Of a stretch of DNA of 64,000 nucleotides, positions 41,568 through 45,682 are shown piece after piece. Within the stretch, counting starts at the first letter, position 1. Each line of letters begins with the position of its first letter. The position numbers and the translations under genes are program-made. Source of the DNA: an uncultured Planctomycetaceae bacterium (lineage in GTDB: Bacteria; Planctomycetota; Planctomycetia; Planctomycetales; Planctomycetaceae); NCBI GenBank assembly GCA_964450955.1, contig CAYVFI010000032.1, positions 8,491 through 72,490 on the forward strand. The letters run 5' to 3'. A model generated the notes under the pieces. It had not been told where the DNA came from. It ran no database searches and saw only the letters and a list, made by a program, of their open reading frames with translations.

Positions 41568-42002
41568 ATGGCTCGCAGTAACCCGGAACTCATTAACGCT
41601 CTTCGTGACACCGCCGACCGCCTGGATTCAGGGGCCCGCTATGAATGGGGGCATATGGCTCGATGCAATTGCGGGCACCTGGTGCAAACGGTGACCGGGA
41701 TGACGGATACAGAGATTTCGTGTTCTGTCGATCATCAGTTGGCAGAATGGACTGATCACGCTGAGAGCTTTTGCGCGGGCACCAGTTTTAAAGTGGACGA
41801 CCTGTTTCGAGAACTCGGCCGAATTGGATTCGATCATCGCGACGTTATGTCGCTTGAGAACCTGTCAGACAATCGCGTGCTGACTCGGCTACCTGCTGAA
41901 CGCAAACGATTACGCCGCAACCAGGTTGCCGACGTTTCTTTGTACATGCGCACGATGGCCGACATGCTGGAAGAAGAAACCCCGACGCAATCACTTGCAT
42001 GA
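41568..42002 (+). CDS. Hypothetical small protein
   Basis: The ATG at 41568 is preceded by GAAGG. 144 aa; no motifs recognised. Confidence 0.4.
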   Translation: MARSNPELINALRDTADRLDSGARYEWGHMARCNCGHLVQTVTGMTDTEISCSVDHQLAEWTDHAESFCAGTSFKVDDLFRELGRIGFDHRDVMSLENLSDNRVLTRLPAERKRLRRNQVADVSLYMRTMADMLEEETPTQSLA

Positions 42003-42239
42003 ACGGTGTGAGCCGACGTGGTTGAGGTACTTTGCGCCTGTTTGTTTTAGTGAGCGCTGCTGCCTTCCGCGACGGCGTCATCGATCGGTGAGCCCGTCGG
42101 TGAGGAACAACGCGTTCAGCCGCTGAAACATCCGCGGGAGCCACTGTTGCTTCTTAGGCCTCGGTTTCCCGTTGCCGATGTTGTAGCCCGGGGTTAGAGC
42201 TTCGCAGTTCGTCGTCGAGACGCCAGATGAGGTTTTGTT

Positions 42240-42550
42240 CCTCGCTCACGCTTCGGGTTTTCATTGTTGCCGGGTTGTCCGGCTTTCGAGCGCGAGCAAC
42301 TATTTGGTCGATCATGTCCCGTTGGAAAGCGGCATCTTTGGAGTCAGCGTTCACTGTGTTTCTCGCAATGGTAACCCGACGCGTAAGCGAGGAAGCTCCT
42401 GCTTACGTTCTCGGCTCCTGCTTACGTTCTCGCTTACGCTTCGGGTTGTCATTTTTGGTTCCTGCTTACGTTCCTGCTTACGTTCTCGCTTACGTTCTCG
42501 CTTACGCTTCGGGTTGTCATTTTTGGTTCCTGCTTACGCTTTGGGTTTCC
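42240..42550. repeat. Cluster of REP-like palindromic repeats (left flank of the RAYT gene)
   Basis: Multiple copies of CTCGCTTACGCTTCGGGTT and the inverted partner GGTAACCCGACGCGTAAGCGAGG. There are 12-mer sub-repeats (CCTGCTTACGTT / CTCGCTTACGTT) and a duplicated ~60 bp block. Confidence 0.8.
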
Positions 42551-43031
42551 GGTCTTGTCCTTCAAGTGTGTACTGGACAACTTGATCAAGTCCGTCATCA
42601 TCAAAGATCCAACGAATACTGCCGCGTTCGGCCCACCAATTTTCCGTTTTCTGTGGCAGTGCGGCTTCTTTGAGTCGGCGAGTACACCACGCTTTCAGAT
42701 CAGCTCGAACTTTTTTTGGTGGAGTCTCGAACGCTCCCACGACTGCATGCATGTGGTTGGTCCGACAATTGACGGCGTGGCAAATCCACTTCCGATGATC
42801 GCAAGTTTCGCGAATCTGGGTTTCGACAATTTGACGTTGTTTATGGCTGAGAATCCTGGCTTCTTCACGCATCTTTGCCGCAGCCTCCAGTTCACGCACG
42901 GGATCCGGTAGCTGCCAACCCTTCTGATATTCGACCCATCCACGCTGATCGCCCGGCAGCCAGGTTCCGTAAGTCGCGATGGTGATAAAGAAGGCAATTG
43001 GATCGTTCATCAGGTAACTCCTTCGGAGCAA
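42534..43031 (-). mobile_element. REP-associated tyrosine transposase (RAYT; HuH-Y1, IS200/IS605 TnpA-like)
   Basis: 165 aa ORF with the HuH motif NHMHAVV. The C-terminal block WAERGSIRWIFDDDGLDQVVQYTLEGQ matches the RAYT consensus W-x-R-x-x-S...L...Y-x3-N/Q, including the catalytic Tyr. It is flanked on both sides by REP-like repeats. Confidence 0.7.
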
Positions 43032-43094
43032 GTGGTCCTAACACTGGAAACCCGAATCGTCAGCGAGGGGCGCACGGGATGCCATCCAGTATAT

Positions 43095-43235
43095 CCTCGC
43101 TTACGCTTCGGGTTTCTGTTTGCTGTCGTCCTCGCTTACGCTTCGGGTTTTCATTGTTGGGTGTCGCTTACGCTTCGGGTTTTTATTGCTGTGGTCTCGG
43201 TTGCTTTTTGGCTTGGTAACCCGACGCGTTAGCGA
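43095..43235. repeat. Cluster of REP-like palindromic repeats (right flank of the RAYT gene)
   Basis: Three copies of (C)CTCGCTTACGCTTCGGGTT followed by the inverted GGTAACCCGACGCGTTAGCGAGG. Confidence 0.8.
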
Positions 43236-43364
43236 GGTTCCTTTTGCTTCTGAAGCGTCCGCCATCGTAGTCTCGCATTTTTCCGATCAGGTGCATCATC
43301 AAACGAAAAAAGCCCTTGTGAGATGAAGTGACATAGGCGTGCACTTCAACGCACAAGGGCTTAA

Positions 43365-43458
43365 CGGGAATGGATGGGAATCGAACCCACCTGGCGACTT
43401 TTCAGCCGCCACAACGGATTTGAAATCCGCGGCAGTCACCAGATCTGCGAACACTCCC
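43365..43458 (-). tRNA. selC: Candidate selenocysteine tRNA (anticodon UCA)
   Basis: The minus-strand sequence is GGGAGTG-TTC-GCAG-ATCTGGTGA-CTGC-C-GCGGA-TTTCAAA-TCCGT-TGT-GGCGGC-TGAAAA-GTCGCC-AG-GGTGGG-TTCGATT-CCCATC-CATTCCC-G. The acceptor stem is 7 bp and the T stem 6 bp, giving a 13 bp coaxial acceptor/T domain. The anticodon loop is UUUCAAA, with U33, anticodon UCA and A37. The variable arm is long (6 bp stem, 6 nt loop). The T-loop is TTCGATT, the discriminator is G73, and CCA is not encoded. The D-arm fold is ambiguous by eye. Confidence 0.65.
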
Positions 43459-43894
43459 CCGGTGATCCTTCGATGATACCGTCGAAGCAACGGCATTCAA
43501 CCACGGGTCCGGTCTTTGTACGACTCGCCACTGATTGGGTTCTATTCGGCTGTTTGAACCCTGGAACGACTTTGCGAACGATGTCGGTACTCAATCATCG
43601 TGACAAGCCAGATGGGATCGGCGGCGACCTTCACCACAGTGCGGGCCCGGATGCGGGGCGGAATTGGGCGAAATGGTTCTGTGGGACGCACTGACGGTTA
43701 GCGGCAATTCCTGCCGTTTAGTGTTTTCAGGTGTACGTTCCTGCTCACCCGAAGCTTGGCGCACAAGACAAGCGCTTAGCTGTTTCGTTGCTAACACTTC
43801 AAAACGGGGCACTCGCCGATCTCGCTGAGCGGGTGTGTCGATACAAGCAGGAAGCTGTCTTTGCTCCTGAGGCTGTCAATTACGGAAGACTGCA

Positions 43895-45682
43895 ATGAGA
43901 TGCCGCGTCCTGGGTTGTGCCGCCTGCATGTTGGTTGTCGTCAGTCTGGTAGGTTCGCCGACGTTCGCGGGTACATTTCCGATTAACGGTCCCGAGGACG
44001 CAGTTCGAATCAGGACCCGTGTTCGGGCGGCTCAATTCCTGACGCATGCCACTTACGGTCCGAAGTACGATGAGATTCTGAGCCTGGCGAAACGGATGGA
44101 GCAGATTGGTGTCCGACCGGCTTGCGAGGAATGGATTGATCGGCAGTTTAAACTTCCGATCACGAAGCATCAGTCGATGGTTTATGCGATGTTGGAGGCA
44201 GACAATATCGACCCGCTGGAGTACCGCCAGGATGGTAAGCGGTTCCGTCAGCATGCGTGGTGGACTGCGGCTCTGTCAGCAGAAGATCAGCTTCGCCAAC
44301 GAATGGCGTTTGCTCTGATGCAGTTCTTTGTTGTTGGTGACAGCGGCCAGAGCTTCAATAACCACCGCATAGACAGCAGTGGCAACGTGCGATTCACCGG
44401 AATCGTAAACTACTACGACATGCTGTTGGAGAACTCGTTCGGCTTCTATCGAGAGACGCTGGAAGACGTTACGTACCACCCCATCATGGGCGTCTGGCTA
44501 AGCCACCTGGGCAACCGCAAGCCAGATACTTCGATCGACCGTTTTCCTGATGAGAATTTCGCTCGAGAGATCATGCAGTTGTTTTCAATCGGATTGCATC
44601 AGCTAAACCAGGATGGGACACCAAAACTGGATGACGCAGGCCGCCTGATTCCCACCTACGACAACGAGACCGTCAGGGCCTACGCACGAGTCTTTACAGG
44701 ATTCGTGTACGCTAGAGGCACCGGTCTTGATCGAGCGAAAAATCTGCACGAACGAATGCAGCTGCTTGAGAGTGAACACGACACCGCAAGGAAAGTTGTT
44801 CTGGACCGAGTGATTCCCGCCGGCCAGTCAGCCAGCGACGACATTCGCATGGCTCTTAACAGCATCAACAAGCACCCCAATGTTGGCCCGTTTCTGGCTC
44901 GACACCTGATTCAGCGGTTCGTGCAGTCAAACCCTGCGCCGGCGTATGTCAGGCGGGTTGCGAATGTCTTCAATAACAACGGCAACGGCCGCCGCGGTGA
45001 TTTTAAAGCCGTACTCAAGGCCGTCCTGTTGGATAACGAGGCATTCAGCGGAGTCCGAATTTCGATTCGCGAGGATGAGGTTCGCGTGCGATCTACCGAT
45101 GGCGAAAGTAGTCGGCTACGCGAACCTATTCTTCGTTATGCGGCATTCCTGCGAGCGTTTGATGCGAAGTCGGACCACTTGACCGGCCGATTCATGATTC
45201 CTGACATGTACCCGATTTGGGATCAGGCGAACTACAAATCGCCAACCGTCTTTAACTTCTTCTCATCAGGTTTTCGTCCGCCCGGGATCCTGATGGACTA
45301 CCGGCCAGAGAAGGTCCTGCCACATGATGTGCTGGTTGCTCCTGAGTTTCAGATCCTGACGACTCGGACGGCCAACCAGATAGCGAATCAGCTTCGAGAC
45401 GACGTGATGGATGCAAGCGCCGACTTTAAGTTGGGCAGCGTTCCGAATGGTCGCTCTTTTAGCACGAGTGTTGCTTTGGATTTCAGCAGGGTGCGAAACA
45501 TGACGGGGCCATCTCGCATCGTGCAGCGTCTGGATCTCATGCTATGTCACGGGACCTTAAGCGATGAGACGCAGAAGGTAATCCGGAACGCGATCGCAGA
45601 GGAAACCGACGACCATGAAGAACGCATCCGTGCCGCGATTCTTTGCGTGCTGACTTCGCCGGACTGCATCATCAGCGAATAG
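43895..45682 (+). CDS. DUF1800 domain protein, secreted
   Basis: 595 aa ORF with a signal peptide. It is followed 65 nt downstream by a DUF1501 gene, the canonical DUF1800/DUF1501 pair. Confidence 0.8.
   Translation: MRCRVLGCAACMLVVVSLVGSPTFAGTFPINGPEDAVRIRTRVRAAQFLTHATYGPKYDEILSLAKRMEQIGVRPACEEWIDRQFKLPITKHQSMVYAMLEADNIDPLEYRQDGKRFRQHAWWTAALSAEDQLRQRMAFALMQFFVVGDSGQSFNNHRIDSSGNVRFTGIVNYYDMLLENSFGFYRETLEDVTYHPIMGVWLSHLGNRKPDTSIDRFPDENFAREIMQLFSIGLHQLNQDGTPKLDDAGRLIPTYDNETVRAYARVFTGFVYARGTGLDRAKNLHERMQLLESEHDTARKVVLDRVIPAGQSASDDIRMALNSINKHPNVGPFLARHLIQRFVQSNPAPAYVRRVANVFNNNGNGRRGDFKAVLKAVLLDNEAFSGVRISIREDEVRVRSTDGESSRLREPILRYAAFLRAFDAKSDHLTGRFMIPDMYPIWDQANYKSPTVFNFFSSGFRPPGILMDYRPEKVLPHDVLVAPEFQILTTRTANQIANQLRDDVMDASADFKLGSVPNGRSFSTSVALDFSRVRNMTGPSRIVQRLDLMLCHGTLSDETQKVIRNAIAEETDDHEERIRAAILCVLTSPDCIISE

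What the first reader, a model, noticed from the sequence alone, without database searches (positions are those of the whole stretch)
42240..43235. RAYT (HuH-Y1 transposase) flanked by REP/BIME-like palindrome clusters next to tRNA-Sec
The 165 aa ORF has the HuH motif (HMH) and the RAYT C-terminal signature W-x-R-x-x-S...Y-x3-Q. On both sides lie clusters of a ~20 nt GC-rich element (CTCGCTTACGCTTCGGGTT) and its near-complement beginning GGTAACCC, in inverted orientation. Inverted REPs of this kind can form BIME-like hairpins, and REPs typically carry a conserved 5' GTAG/GTAA-like tetranucleotide. The left cluster also contains an internal ~60 bp duplication and 12 bp sub-repeats. The location, about 130 bp from the 3' end of a tRNA gene, is a typical hot spot. 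The repeats create several spurious ORFs encoding recurrent LTLRVFIV/RLRFGF peptides.
Basis: partly seen in the sequence, partly recalled or inferred. Interest (0 to 1): 0.55.

Follow-up and report, generated by a model that had tools for sequence, protein, structure and literature searches.

The report
Planctomycete RAYT-like nuclease with hairpin repeats
This is an intact single-strand-DNA nuclease gene of the transposase-like HuH-Y1 type, bracketed by its own hairpin-forming repeats; it is a further example of a little-studied class described in 2018, and its repeat sequence is nearly unchanged across a whole class of bacteria.

Summary
A 158-aa ORF (42534-43010, minus strand) has the HuH-Y1 transposase fold and motifs. 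Ten copies of a ~20-nt arm (AACCCGAMGCGTRAGCGAGG and its complement) lie on both sides, and nowhere else in the 64-kb window. They form two strong ssDNA hairpins, one on each side of the gene, plus tandem single-arm expansions. tRNA-Sec lies 129 nt away.

The protein is not a canonical RAYT: it has Y-x4-Q instead of YIxxNP, no GTAG foot, and NCBIfam RAYT and IS200 scores far below cutoff. It best fits the "class 3" TnpA-Y1 group of Quentin et al. 2018, which occurs in Planctomycetes and has atypical flanking structures with a CnGA foot.

- 79 of 80 homologues found by protein search (50-84% identity) carry the same arms in the same layout: hairpin, gene, hairpin.
- The exact 19-mer occurs in at least 120 gene-less, mostly intergenic sites in Planctomycetia genomes from several families, usually as 26-bp-stem hairpins.
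- Identical proteins sit at one fixed locus across samples, so the gene behaves like a resident gene, not a multi-copy IS.
- tRNA adjacency is not seen in the two homologue loci scanned for tRNAs.

Verdict: a new member of a known kind, of modest interest. The class-wide conservation of the repeat sequence is the unusual point.

The parts
42534..43010 (-). HuH-Y1 nuclease gene (158 aa; RAYT-like, best fit to class 3 TnpA-Y1). HuH codons at 42747-42755, catalytic Tyr147 codon at 42570-42572, Gln152 codon at 42555-42557. The stop codon TAA at 42534-42536 lies inside a repeat arm.
43018..43023 (-). Shine-Dalgarno sequence AAGGAG, 7 nt before ATG 43010. It supports the 158-aa start over TTG 43031.
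   Evidence: read directly; homologue N-termini
43042..43120 (-). Upstream hairpin, with arms at 43095-43116 and 43047-68 (22 nt, 91% complementary, 26-nt loop). As ssDNA it folds at -25 kcal/mol, z = -6.5. It corresponds to the upstream arm pair (about -83 and -36 nt from the start codon) of homologues.
   Evidence: (I12)
43128..43191 (+). Two further tandem arms of the same orientation, at 43131-43149 and 43163-43181 (32-nt period array 43094-43196).
43211..43239 (+). Outermost inverted arm, TTGGTAACCCGACGCGTTAGCGAGG. This is the right-hand edge of the repeat cluster.
   Evidence: (D4)
42529..42550 (+). Degenerate arm overlapping the 3' end of the gene. On the gene strand it reads GGAAACCCAAAGCGTAAGCAGG and encodes K-P-K-A-stop.
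42367..42453 (-). Downstream hairpin, with arms at 42429-42453 and 42367-42391 (25 nt, 88% complementary, 37-nt loop). As ssDNA it folds at -27.9 kcal/mol, z = -7.3.
   Evidence: (I7)
42395..42547 (+). Tandem expansions of partial and whole arms: 19 nt x2 at 42395-42432, 12 nt x4.1 at 42458-42506, a 51-nt exact duplication (42420-42470 = 42488-42538), and an arm at 42497-42515.
   Evidence: (D1, D3)
42238..42269 (+). Outermost left arm (1 mismatch to the core). It pairs with 42366-42394 over a 99-nt loop and forms the left-hand edge of the cluster.
   Evidence: (I2)

Best explanation
The locus is a 'REPtron' of the class-3 type. It consists of a resident, single-copy gene for an HuH-Y1 single-strand-DNA endonuclease/ligase, bracketed by copies of its cognate repeat.

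**The repeat unit.** The unit is a ~20-nt arm, AACCCGA(A/C)GCGT(A/G)AGCGAGG. Two inverted arms make a hairpin with a stem of about 26 bp and a variable loop, which resembles a REPIN.

**Layout.** The canonical layout is hairpin, then a short leader with a ribosome-binding site, then the gene, then a second hairpin. The gene's last codons and its TAA stop are supplied by the first arm of the downstream hairpin. In this window both flanks also carry tandem expansions of single arms.

**Inferred mechanism.** As in IS608/ISDra2 TnpA and the E. coli RAYT, the protein would recognise the folded arm or hairpin on single-stranded DNA, for example the lagging-strand template. It would cleave next to it through Tyr147, with the HuH histidines holding the metal ion, and rejoin the strands. 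This would copy, delete or move arms and hairpins while the gene itself stays in place.

**What is shown.** The fold and motifs, the repeat anatomy, the gene-repeat association across the family, gene-less dispersed hairpins in related genomes, and a fixed single locus for identical proteins.

**What is inferred.** That the enzyme binds and cleaves these arms, the cleavage site, and any activity in this particular genome.
For: **Protein**
- PF01797 matches at E = 2.8e-4, and 28 of 28 relatives match.
- The AF2 model has pLDDT 79. The top 30 Foldseek PDB hits are all HuH-Y1 transposases: ISDra2 2xm3 and E. coli RAYT 4er8 both at E = 5e-5, plus IS608 and IS200.
- N-H-x-H, Y147 and Q152 are invariant, together with 37 other columns.

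**Repeats in the window**
- 10 arms occur against 0.02 expected.
- Two hairpins fold with z = -6.5 and -7.3.

**Association with the gene family**
- 79 of 80 loci found by protein search (50-84% identity) have an arm with up to 4 mismatches within 600 nt. 38 have a perfect 19-mer and 62 have at most 1 mismatch.
- These loci show a recurring layout of arm pair, gene, arm pair.

**Dispersal without the gene**
- The exact 19-mer was found in at least 120 genome stretches before the scan hit its limit. All are Planctomycetota and none holds a homologue of the gene.
- With fuzzy matching there are 106 hairpins in the inward-facing arrangement against 6 in the opposite arrangement. Paired positions covary.
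- 71% of elements lie outside ORFs, although 84% of the sequence is ORF by a crude caller.

**Resident-gene behaviour**
- The identical proteins P0115 (23 contigs) and P0091 (6 contigs) always have the same neighbours.

**Literature**
- Class 3 TnpA-Y1 has a Y----Q motif, occurs in Planctomycetes, is flanked by atypical structures with a CnGA foot, and has about 600 copies of the structure in one genome (PMC6006769). The arm here contains CCGA.
Against: - No solo arm occurs in the other 63 kb of this window, so dispersal in the source genome is unproven.
- The window's two arm types differ at one core position (T against the complement of C), so local hairpins carry mismatches.
- The W motif is WC, not the W[TA] given for class 3. 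The HuH middle residue is M, not V.
- Class-3 sequences and profile were not available for a direct comparison.
- Tandem single-arm arrays could arise by replication slippage without any enzyme.
- No biochemical evidence exists for this class.
Confidence: 0.72

Rival explanations
1. An autonomous IS200/IS605-type insertion sequence. The two hairpins would be the left and right ends, and the whole unit of hairpin, gene and hairpin would excise and insert as single-stranded DNA.
For: - The hairpins on both sides have the same orientation, like LE and RE of IS608.
- The fold is as close to ISDra2/IS608 TnpA as to the RAYT.
- The tyrosine motif ends in Q, as in class 1.
- Homologues at 83-85% identity sit in unrelated gene contexts.
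- The closest DUF1800 orthologues (80% and 61% identity) lack the element upstream.
Against: - Identical proteins are always found at one locus with the same neighbours. No near-identical copies in different contexts were seen.
- NCBIfam IS200 scores 20 bits against a cutoff of 55.
- There is no tnpB.
- Hairpins without the gene were recovered at 120 of 120 repeat-matched genome sites, none with the gene.
- Upstream synteny of the DUF1800 orthologues is broken altogether, so these are not clean empty sites.
Confidence: 0.1
2. The hairpins are primarily host elements, for example transcription terminators, mRNA stabilisers or protein-binding sites. Host selection would keep them conserved, and the nuclease would be a domesticated partner or merely co-located.
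For: - A 19-21-nt core is conserved across the families sampled (named). REPs are normally species-specific (PMC6006769).
- The elements are mostly intergenic.
- Paired positions covary.
Against: - 79 of 80 genes carry the arms in a fixed layout, and the gene's stop codon is built into an arm. This argues for a direct enzyme-substrate link.
- Elements occur in all intergenic contexts, including 13 between divergent genes, not only at 3' ends.
- Loops of 13-133 nt and the absence of a T-run do not fit intrinsic terminators.
- No Rfam family matches.
Confidence: 0.1
3. A relic in this genome. The gene is intact, but its repeat population is extinct or nearly so, and the flanking arrays are decaying slippage products.
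For: - There are no solo copies in 63 kb.
- Local arms are variant (T against C at one core position).
- The arm at the stop codon is degenerate, with 3 mismatches.
- The downstream hairpin is displaced by tandem duplications.
Against: - All 41 invariant residues of the family are kept, including the catalytic ones.
- Four arms are perfect 19-mers.
- Two stable hairpins remain.
- 63 kb is a small sample of the genome.
Confidence: 0.08

Closest known systems
Class 3 TnpA-Y1 proteins and their flanking structures (Quentin et al. 2018, BMC Genomics 19:475, PMC6006769)
   Same: - Occurs in Planctomycetes.
- HuH motif is N-H-u-H and the tyrosine motif is Y-x4-Q.
- About 155-aa conserved span including a conserved N-terminus.
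- The gene is flanked by several atypical, weak single-arm structures containing CnGA (here CCGA).
- The structures occur in many gene-less copies in related genomes.
- Character is intermediate between an IS and a REPtron.
   Different: - The W motif is WC rather than W[TA].
- The HuH middle residue is M.
- A direct comparison with their 24 sequences or their profile was not possible.
- The paper, as far as read, does not describe the 26-bp inverted-arm hairpins, the stop codon built into the arm, or sequence conservation across a whole class.
Canonical REPtron / REPIN-RAYT systems (E. coli TnpA-REP, PDB 4er8; Pseudomonas REPINs)
   Same: - HuH-Y1 fold.
- Single resident gene flanked by its repeats.
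- Repeats dispersed extragenically as inverted doublets that form hairpins.
- Clusters of repeats next to the gene.
   Different: - No GT[AG]G foot.
- Single arms are not palindromes.
- Y-x4-Q stands in place of YIxxNP.
- The NCBIfam RAYT model scores 19 bits against a cutoff of 80.
- The repeat sequence is conserved across families and orders instead of being species-specific.
IS200/IS605 TnpA (IS608, ISDra2)
   Same: - HuH-Y1 fold with equal Foldseek scores.
- Q follows the catalytic Tyr.
- Hairpins on both sides of the gene in the same orientation.
   Different: - Y-x4-Q rather than Y-x3-Q.
- Not multi-copy.
- No tnpB.
- Far more hairpins than genes.
- The NCBIfam IS200 model scores 20 bits against a cutoff of 55.
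TIRtrons / TIRYT (Di Nocera et al. 2013, BMC Genomics 14:522, PMC3733652)
   Same: - Tyrosine-transposase genes flanked by inverted repeats that are not GTAG REPs.
- Some of these repeats form moderately abundant repeat families.
- The authors note a 'plethora' of such genes and repeats in Rhodopirellula baltica.
   Different: - The TIR consensus reported there (GGGGWSAS) is unrelated to this arm.
- Whether the R. baltica families include this repeat could not be checked.

Membership tests
HuH-Y1 transposase superfamily (Pfam PF01797 Y1_Tnp) | Sequence match to the family profile | tested here: met
   The window protein matches at E = 2.8e-4 with 21.4 bits, just under the gathering score of 23. 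All 28 of 28 aligned homologues match at E <= 0.01, best 1.7e-7.
HuH-Y1 transposase superfamily (Pfam PF01797 Y1_Tnp) | HuH metal-binding motif and a catalytic Tyr on the C-terminal helix | tested here: met
   N85, H86, H88 and Y147 are invariant in 28 sequences. Y147 lies in the predicted C-terminal helix 138-153.
HuH-Y1 transposase superfamily (Pfam PF01797 Y1_Tnp) | The fold | tested here: met
   Foldseek PDB ranks 1-30 are all ISDra2, IS608, IS200, Sulfolobus TnpA or the E. coli RAYT, with E from 5e-5 to 7e-3 and TM-score 0.5-0.7.
Canonical RAYT / TnpA-REP (class 2) | NCBIfam REP_Tyr_transpos (NF047646) score above cutoff | tested here: not met
   19 bits against a cutoff of 80.
Canonical RAYT / TnpA-REP (class 2) | Tyrosine motif YIxxNP and W[QE] after HuH (Table 1 of PMC6006769) | tested here: not met
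   The tyrosine motif is YTLEGQ and the W motif is W108-C109.
Canonical RAYT / TnpA-REP (class 2) | Flanking REPs with an unpaired 5' GT[AG]G foot and a short self-palindromic stem | tested here: not met
   The four bases 5' of the core vary and covary with the partner arm. A single arm has at most a 3-bp CGC/GCG stem, read from the sequence.
Canonical RAYT / TnpA-REP (class 2) | Single resident copy with repeats dispersed elsewhere in the genome | tested here: inconclusive
   Met in relatives. In the source genome only 64 kb is visible, and it has no solo copy.
IS200/IS605 TnpA (class 1.1) | NCBIfam transpos_IS200 (NF033573) score above cutoff | tested here: not met
   20.2 bits against a cutoff of 55.
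IS200/IS605 TnpA (class 1.1) | Several (near-)identical copies in different genomic contexts | tested here: not met
   The identical proteins P0115 (23 contigs) and P0091 (6 contigs) each always have the same neighbours. The window holds one copy.
IS200/IS605 TnpA (class 1.1) | Subterminal hairpins at both ends on the same strand | tested here: met
   A hairpin lies upstream and another downstream in the same orientation, in the window and in homologues.
Class 3 TnpA-Y1 (Quentin et al. 2018) | Y-x4-Q tyrosine motif | tested here: met
   Y147 and Q152 are invariant, and the family consensus is YVxExQ. The paper gives YV[VI][AENY]EQ.
Class 3 TnpA-Y1 (Quentin et al. 2018) | HuH motif NHVH and W[TA] | tested here: inconclusive
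   N-H-x-H is invariant, with M/L/V/I/A/F in the middle position. The W motif is WC (WA in 2 of 28).
Class 3 TnpA-Y1 (Quentin et al. 2018) | Extended conserved N-terminus and a profile of about 155 aa | tested here: met
   The protein is 158 aa, and residues 4-35 hold 15 invariant columns.
Class 3 TnpA-Y1 (Quentin et al. 2018) | [quoted passage not shown] | tested here: met
   The arms contain CCGA followed by CGC-GTAA-GCG. 79 of 80 genes are flanked by them. Gene-less copies occur in related genomes.
Class 3 TnpA-Y1 (Quentin et al. 2018) | Match to the authors' class-3 HMM or clustering with their sequences | not testable with these tools
   The profile and accessions were not found in the text that is held.
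REPIN (inverted REP doublet forming a hairpin) | Two inverted arms with a short spacer, extragenic, many copies per genome | tested here: inconclusive
   In related genomes there are 106 inward-facing pairs against 6 outward-facing, loops are mostly 13-60 nt, and 71% are extragenic. Per-genome counts and source-genome copies were not obtainable.

The most novel reading that the evidence does not exclude
The arm and hairpin sequence has stayed essentially frozen across the class Planctomycetia, which includes Pirellulales, Planctomycetales, Gemmatales and Isosphaerales. The exact 19-mer and a ~21-nt consensus persist while the partner protein has diverged to about 50% identity. That would make this an anciently and vertically co-inherited nuclease-hairpin pair whose DNA element is more conserved than its enzyme. 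Classical REPs, in contrast, are species-specific. Such conservation would imply either extremely tight enzyme-substrate co-constraint or an added host function of the hairpins.
Probability: 0.4. Interest if true: 0.55.

Novelty: new member of a known kind. Interest (0 to 1): 0.35.

Why it matters
Class 3 HuH-Y1 proteins were defined from only 24 sequences. They were proposed as an evolutionary intermediate between IS200/IS605 transposases and domesticated RAYTs, and there are no experiments on them.

This locus and its more than 1,500 relatives provide a clear and easily testable anatomy:
- a defined ~20-nt arm;
- a hairpin-gene-hairpin layout;
- a stop codon built into the arm;
- arm arrays that differ in unit number between strains.

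The conservation of the arm across many families offers an unusually clean substrate for biochemical work. It also bears on how long REPIN-like populations persist. For genome annotation, the repeats explain contig breaks and many spurious small ORFs in planctomycete assemblies.

Tried and rejected
- **PDB sequence searches.** A single-sequence search and a 28-sequence profile search of the PDB both found nothing. Only the fold comparison linked the protein to solved structures.
- **Rfam.** A scan of 41800-43700 at E <= 1 found only tRNA-Sec plus noise, and no family for the hairpins.
- **Empty-site comparison.** DUF1800 orthologues at 80% and 61% identity (L126-L128) have entirely different upstream neighbours and carry no tRNA-Sec, repeat or gene. 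They are uninformative about insertion.
- **tRNA hot spot.** The homologue loci L002 and L005 have no tRNA. The idea was rejected on that limited sample.
- **CRISPR-like reading of the tandem arm arrays.** Rejected, because periods of 29-33 nt leave no room for spacers.
- **Literature.** Searching for the arm sequence itself gave 0 papers. Supplementary files of PMC6006769 held no class-3 or planctomycete entries that could be searched.
- **Source genome.** The exact protein is on record on three contigs, but only a 6.9-kb one was returned. A genome-wide arm count for the source organism was therefore not possible.
Full report
**1. What is in the window**

On the minus strand there is an ORF at 42534..43031 (165 aa from TTG). 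The biologically consistent start is ATG 43010, giving 158 aa. All close homologues begin M-[ND]-D-P-I-A-F-F, and an AAGGAG Shine-Dalgarno sequence lies 7 nt upstream at 43018-43023 on the minus strand (read).

The 19-nt core CTCGCTTACGCTTCGGGTT, with up to 3 mismatches, occurs 10 times in the 64-kb window. All copies lie within 42241-43236. Seven are in one orientation and three in the other. Chance expectation is 0.02. With up to 4 mismatches there is still nothing outside this cluster.

- a 51-nt exact duplicate (42420-42470 = 42488-42538);
- 12-nt sub-repeats (x4.1);
- 19-nt sub-repeats (x2);
- 32-nt-period arrays on both sides.

tRNA-Sec is at 43365-43458 on the minus strand. It has its own terminator-like hairpin plus a T-run at 43310-43362 (I13). 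The nearest arm ends 129 nt from the tRNA's 3' end.

**2. The protein**

Sequence profile evidence:
- Pfam PF01797 (Y1_Tnp) matches at E = 2.8e-4 with 21.4 bits, just below the gathering score of 23.
- All 28 of 28 aligned homologues match PF01797, best 1.7e-7.
- NCBIfam gives only 20 bits for IS200 (cutoff 55) and 19 bits for the REP-associated tyrosine transposase model (cutoff 80). The protein therefore belongs to neither curated family.

A database search found 1,561 relatives. The named ones are planctomycete 'transposase' or 'RayT' entries.

In an alignment of 28 relatives (59-85% identity to the window protein), 41 columns are invariant. They include N85, H86 and H88 (the HuH motif), W108, W125-W126, R129-G130-S131, R133, Y147 and Q152.

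Sequence searches of the PDB found nothing. An AlphaFold model (pLDDT 79, pTM 0.74) did link the protein to solved structures. In Foldseek ranks 1-30 it matches only HuH-Y1 transposases. ISDra2 TnpA (2xm3) and the E. coli RAYT (4er8) tie at E = 5e-5, followed by IS608, IS200 and Sulfolobus TnpA.

**3. The repeat is tied to the gene family**

Homologues at 83-85% identity sit in unrelated gene neighbourhoods: inositol-phosphatase/rhomboid in L002, and 3-keto-disaccharide hydrolase/ketoacyl synthase in L005. They are flanked by the same element.

A metagenome scan seeded with the protein alignment returned 80 loci at 50-84% identity. Of these:
- 79 have at least one arm with up to 4 mismatches within 600 nt;
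- 38 have a perfect 19-mer;
- 62 have at most 1 mismatch, even among proteins only 50-55% identical.

The recurring layout, in gene orientation, is:
- arm AACCCGA.GCGT.AGCGAGG at about -83;
- its inverted partner at about -36;
- the gene;
- an arm overlapping or just after the stop codon;
- its partner at +45 to +80.

In the closest relatives the last codons and the stop codon are part of the arm: TGG AAA CCC GAC GCG TAA encodes W-K-P-D-A-stop. The window has the decayed version, GGA AAC CCA AAG CGT AAG read in the gene frame as K-P-K-A-stop.

In the window the same layout is recognisable. There is an upstream hairpin at 43042-43120 (ssDNA -25 kcal/mol, z = -6.5) and a downstream hairpin at 42367-42453 (-27.9 kcal/mol, z = -7.3). 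Extra tandem arms lie on both sides.

**4. The repeat also lives without the gene**

All 120 are Planctomycetota. The families named in the records are Pirellulaceae, Lacipirellulaceae, Planctomycetaceae (Schlesneria, Fuerstiella), Gemmataceae and Isosphaeraceae. None of the 120 8-kb blocks encodes a homologue of the protein.

With fuzzy matching these blocks hold 289 arms. They form 106 inward-facing pairs (AACCCG...GCGAGG-loop-CCTCGC...CGGGTT; loops 13-133 nt, mostly 14-35) against only 6 pairs in the opposite arrangement.

The stem extends 4-5 nt beyond the conserved core with variable but complementary bases (T-A/C-G, A-T/C-G/G-C and so on). The two variable core positions also covary, with A-T 61 and C-G 20 against 19 for the two main mismatched combinations. 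The unit is therefore a hairpin with a stem of about 26 bp.

By a crude ORF caller, 71% of element clusters lie outside ORFs although 84% of the sequence is ORF. The elements occur in all intergenic configurations.

A cultured species, Crateriforma conspicua, shows the same flanking hairpins and a solo hairpin 3.6 kb away.

No Rfam family matches, and the arm sequence was not found in the searchable literature.

**5. IS or resident gene?**

The identical proteins P0115 (23 contigs from many samples) and P0091 (6 contigs) are each always found with the same neighbouring genes. This argues against recent multi-copy transposition of the gene.

What varies between these otherwise 99.5-100% identical loci is the number of tandem arms next to the gene. 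There are 3, 7 or 9 upstream units of 29 nt in L209, L210 and L211, and similar variation downstream. Two C. conspicua isolates differ by one listed arm in a 76-nt-period array, and the upstream intergenic gap is 156 nt shorter in L222. Metagenome assemblies may collapse such arrays, so this point is suggestive only.

No clean empty site could be found. DUF1800 orthologues at 80% and 61% identity have wholly different upstream regions.

**6. Comparison with what is known**

Quentin et al. 2018 (PMC6006769) defined a small 'class 3' of TnpA-Y1 proteins with these features:
- found mainly in Planctomycetes, Acidobacteria and Proteobacteria;
- HuH motif NHVH, W[TA], and a Y----Q tyrosine motif;
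- a 155-aa profile with an extended conserved N-terminus;
- up to about 600 copies of the structure in a genome;
- judged intermediate between IS and REPtron.

The present protein and repeat fit this description on most points. The Y-x4-Q motif, N-H-u-H, the 158-aa length with a conserved N-terminus, the planctomycete origin, and arms carrying CCGA followed by a weak CGC-GTAA-GCG stem all agree. The exception is WC in place of W[TA].

Di Nocera et al. 2013 (PMC3733652) had already noted many tyrosine-transposase genes with flanking repeats in Rhodopirellula baltica. They also described 'TIRtrons' flanked by non-GTAG inverted repeats.

Canonical RAYT membership fails on the curated model score, the YIxxNP motif and the GTAG foot. 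IS200/IS605 membership fails on the model score and on copy behaviour.

**7. Mechanism (inferred)**

By analogy with IS608/ISDra2 TnpA and the E. coli RAYT, which are structurally the nearest solved proteins, the enzyme should recognise the arm or hairpin on single-stranded DNA. It would cleave through Tyr147 with HuH-bound metal and religate. This would generate the movement, duplication and deletion of arms and hairpins.

Three observations are compatible with repeated cutting and rejoining at the arms, but equally with slippage:
- the tandem single-arm arrays;
- recurrent 8-nt microduplications inside arms (GCGTAAGA|GCGTAAGC in L002);
- an ORF-less tandem derivative in L133, where the leader is fused to the gene's 3' end at an 8-nt microhomology.

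Binding, the cleavage site and activity are all untested.

**8. Verdict**

It is wrong in detail on the motif spacing, the GTAG-like foot, self-palindromic REPs and the tRNA hot spot.

The locus is a new member of a known but poorly characterised kind. The one feature that stands out is that the arm sequence is nearly invariant across the families of Planctomycetia sampled, while the protein diverges to about 50% identity. This is unlike the species-specific REPs described so far. Whether the source genome itself carries a dispersed population could not be determined.

Noticed in passing
window 42534-42550; L002 2530-2552; L129, L130, L132, L133, L210 gene ends: The gene's TAA stop codon is the TAA of the arm core GCGTAAGCG. 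The C-terminal residues K/W-K-P-[DEK]-A are encoded by the arm. The downstream hairpin therefore begins inside the ORF in many homologues.
   Followed up: partly
L209-L214 (3714-3965 and 4473-5590); L221 versus L222 (9615-9900): Loci with the identical protein and 99.5-100% identical flanks differ in the number of tandem arms beside the gene: 3, 7 or 9 units of 29 nt. In two Crateriforma conspicua isolates one fewer arm of a 76-nt-period array is listed in L222, where the upstream intergenic gap is 156 nt shorter. The arrays look dynamic, but short-read collapse cannot be excluded for the metagenomes.
   Followed up: partly
L133 2700-2806: Directly after the downstream hairpin there is a second copy of the leader. 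Its 'TGATGGAC' is fused to the gene's 3' end (AGGACTGGAAACCCGAA...). This is an ORF-less derivative, apparently made by deletion between 8-nt microhomologies at the start and end of the gene. It is a possible route to gene-less modules of hairpin, spacer and hairpin.
   Followed up: partly
L002 1712-1731, 1988-2007, 2765-2785; L049 near 1470: Recurrent microduplications occur inside arms in independent loci: 8-nt GCGTAAGA|GCGTAAGC and GCTCACGC|GCTCACGC. The window has analogous 12-nt units (CGTAAGCGAGAA on the gene strand, 42458-42506). They may mark a preferred break or slippage point.
   Followed up: no
L223-L242 (IMG/VR contigs): Twenty contigs classed as viral hold the exact 19-mer. None encodes a homologue of the gene. 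Several carry four tandem arms with a 33-nt period (L224, L229, L237). Whether these are true phages or planctomycete fragments was not examined.
   Followed up: partly
window 43310-43362: A 21-nt inverted repeat (90% complementary) followed on the minus strand by a T-run lies immediately 3' of tRNA-Sec. It is probably the tRNA's intrinsic terminator, is unrelated to the repeat family, and separates the tRNA from the repeat cluster.
   Followed up: no
L001 (Logan contig, 6897 bp) and several short loci: Short-read contigs carrying this gene often end within or next to the repeat cluster. L001 ends 25 nt after the gene. The repeats appear to break assemblies.
   Followed up: no
window 43895-45682 and downstream; L126-L128: The DUF1800-DUF1501 gene pair is conserved with relatives at 61-80% identity, but everything upstream of it differs between genomes (a response regulator/HD protein in L126, and unrelated ORFs in L127 and L128). 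Synteny breaks exactly at the side where tRNA-Sec and the repeat cluster lie.
   Followed up: partly
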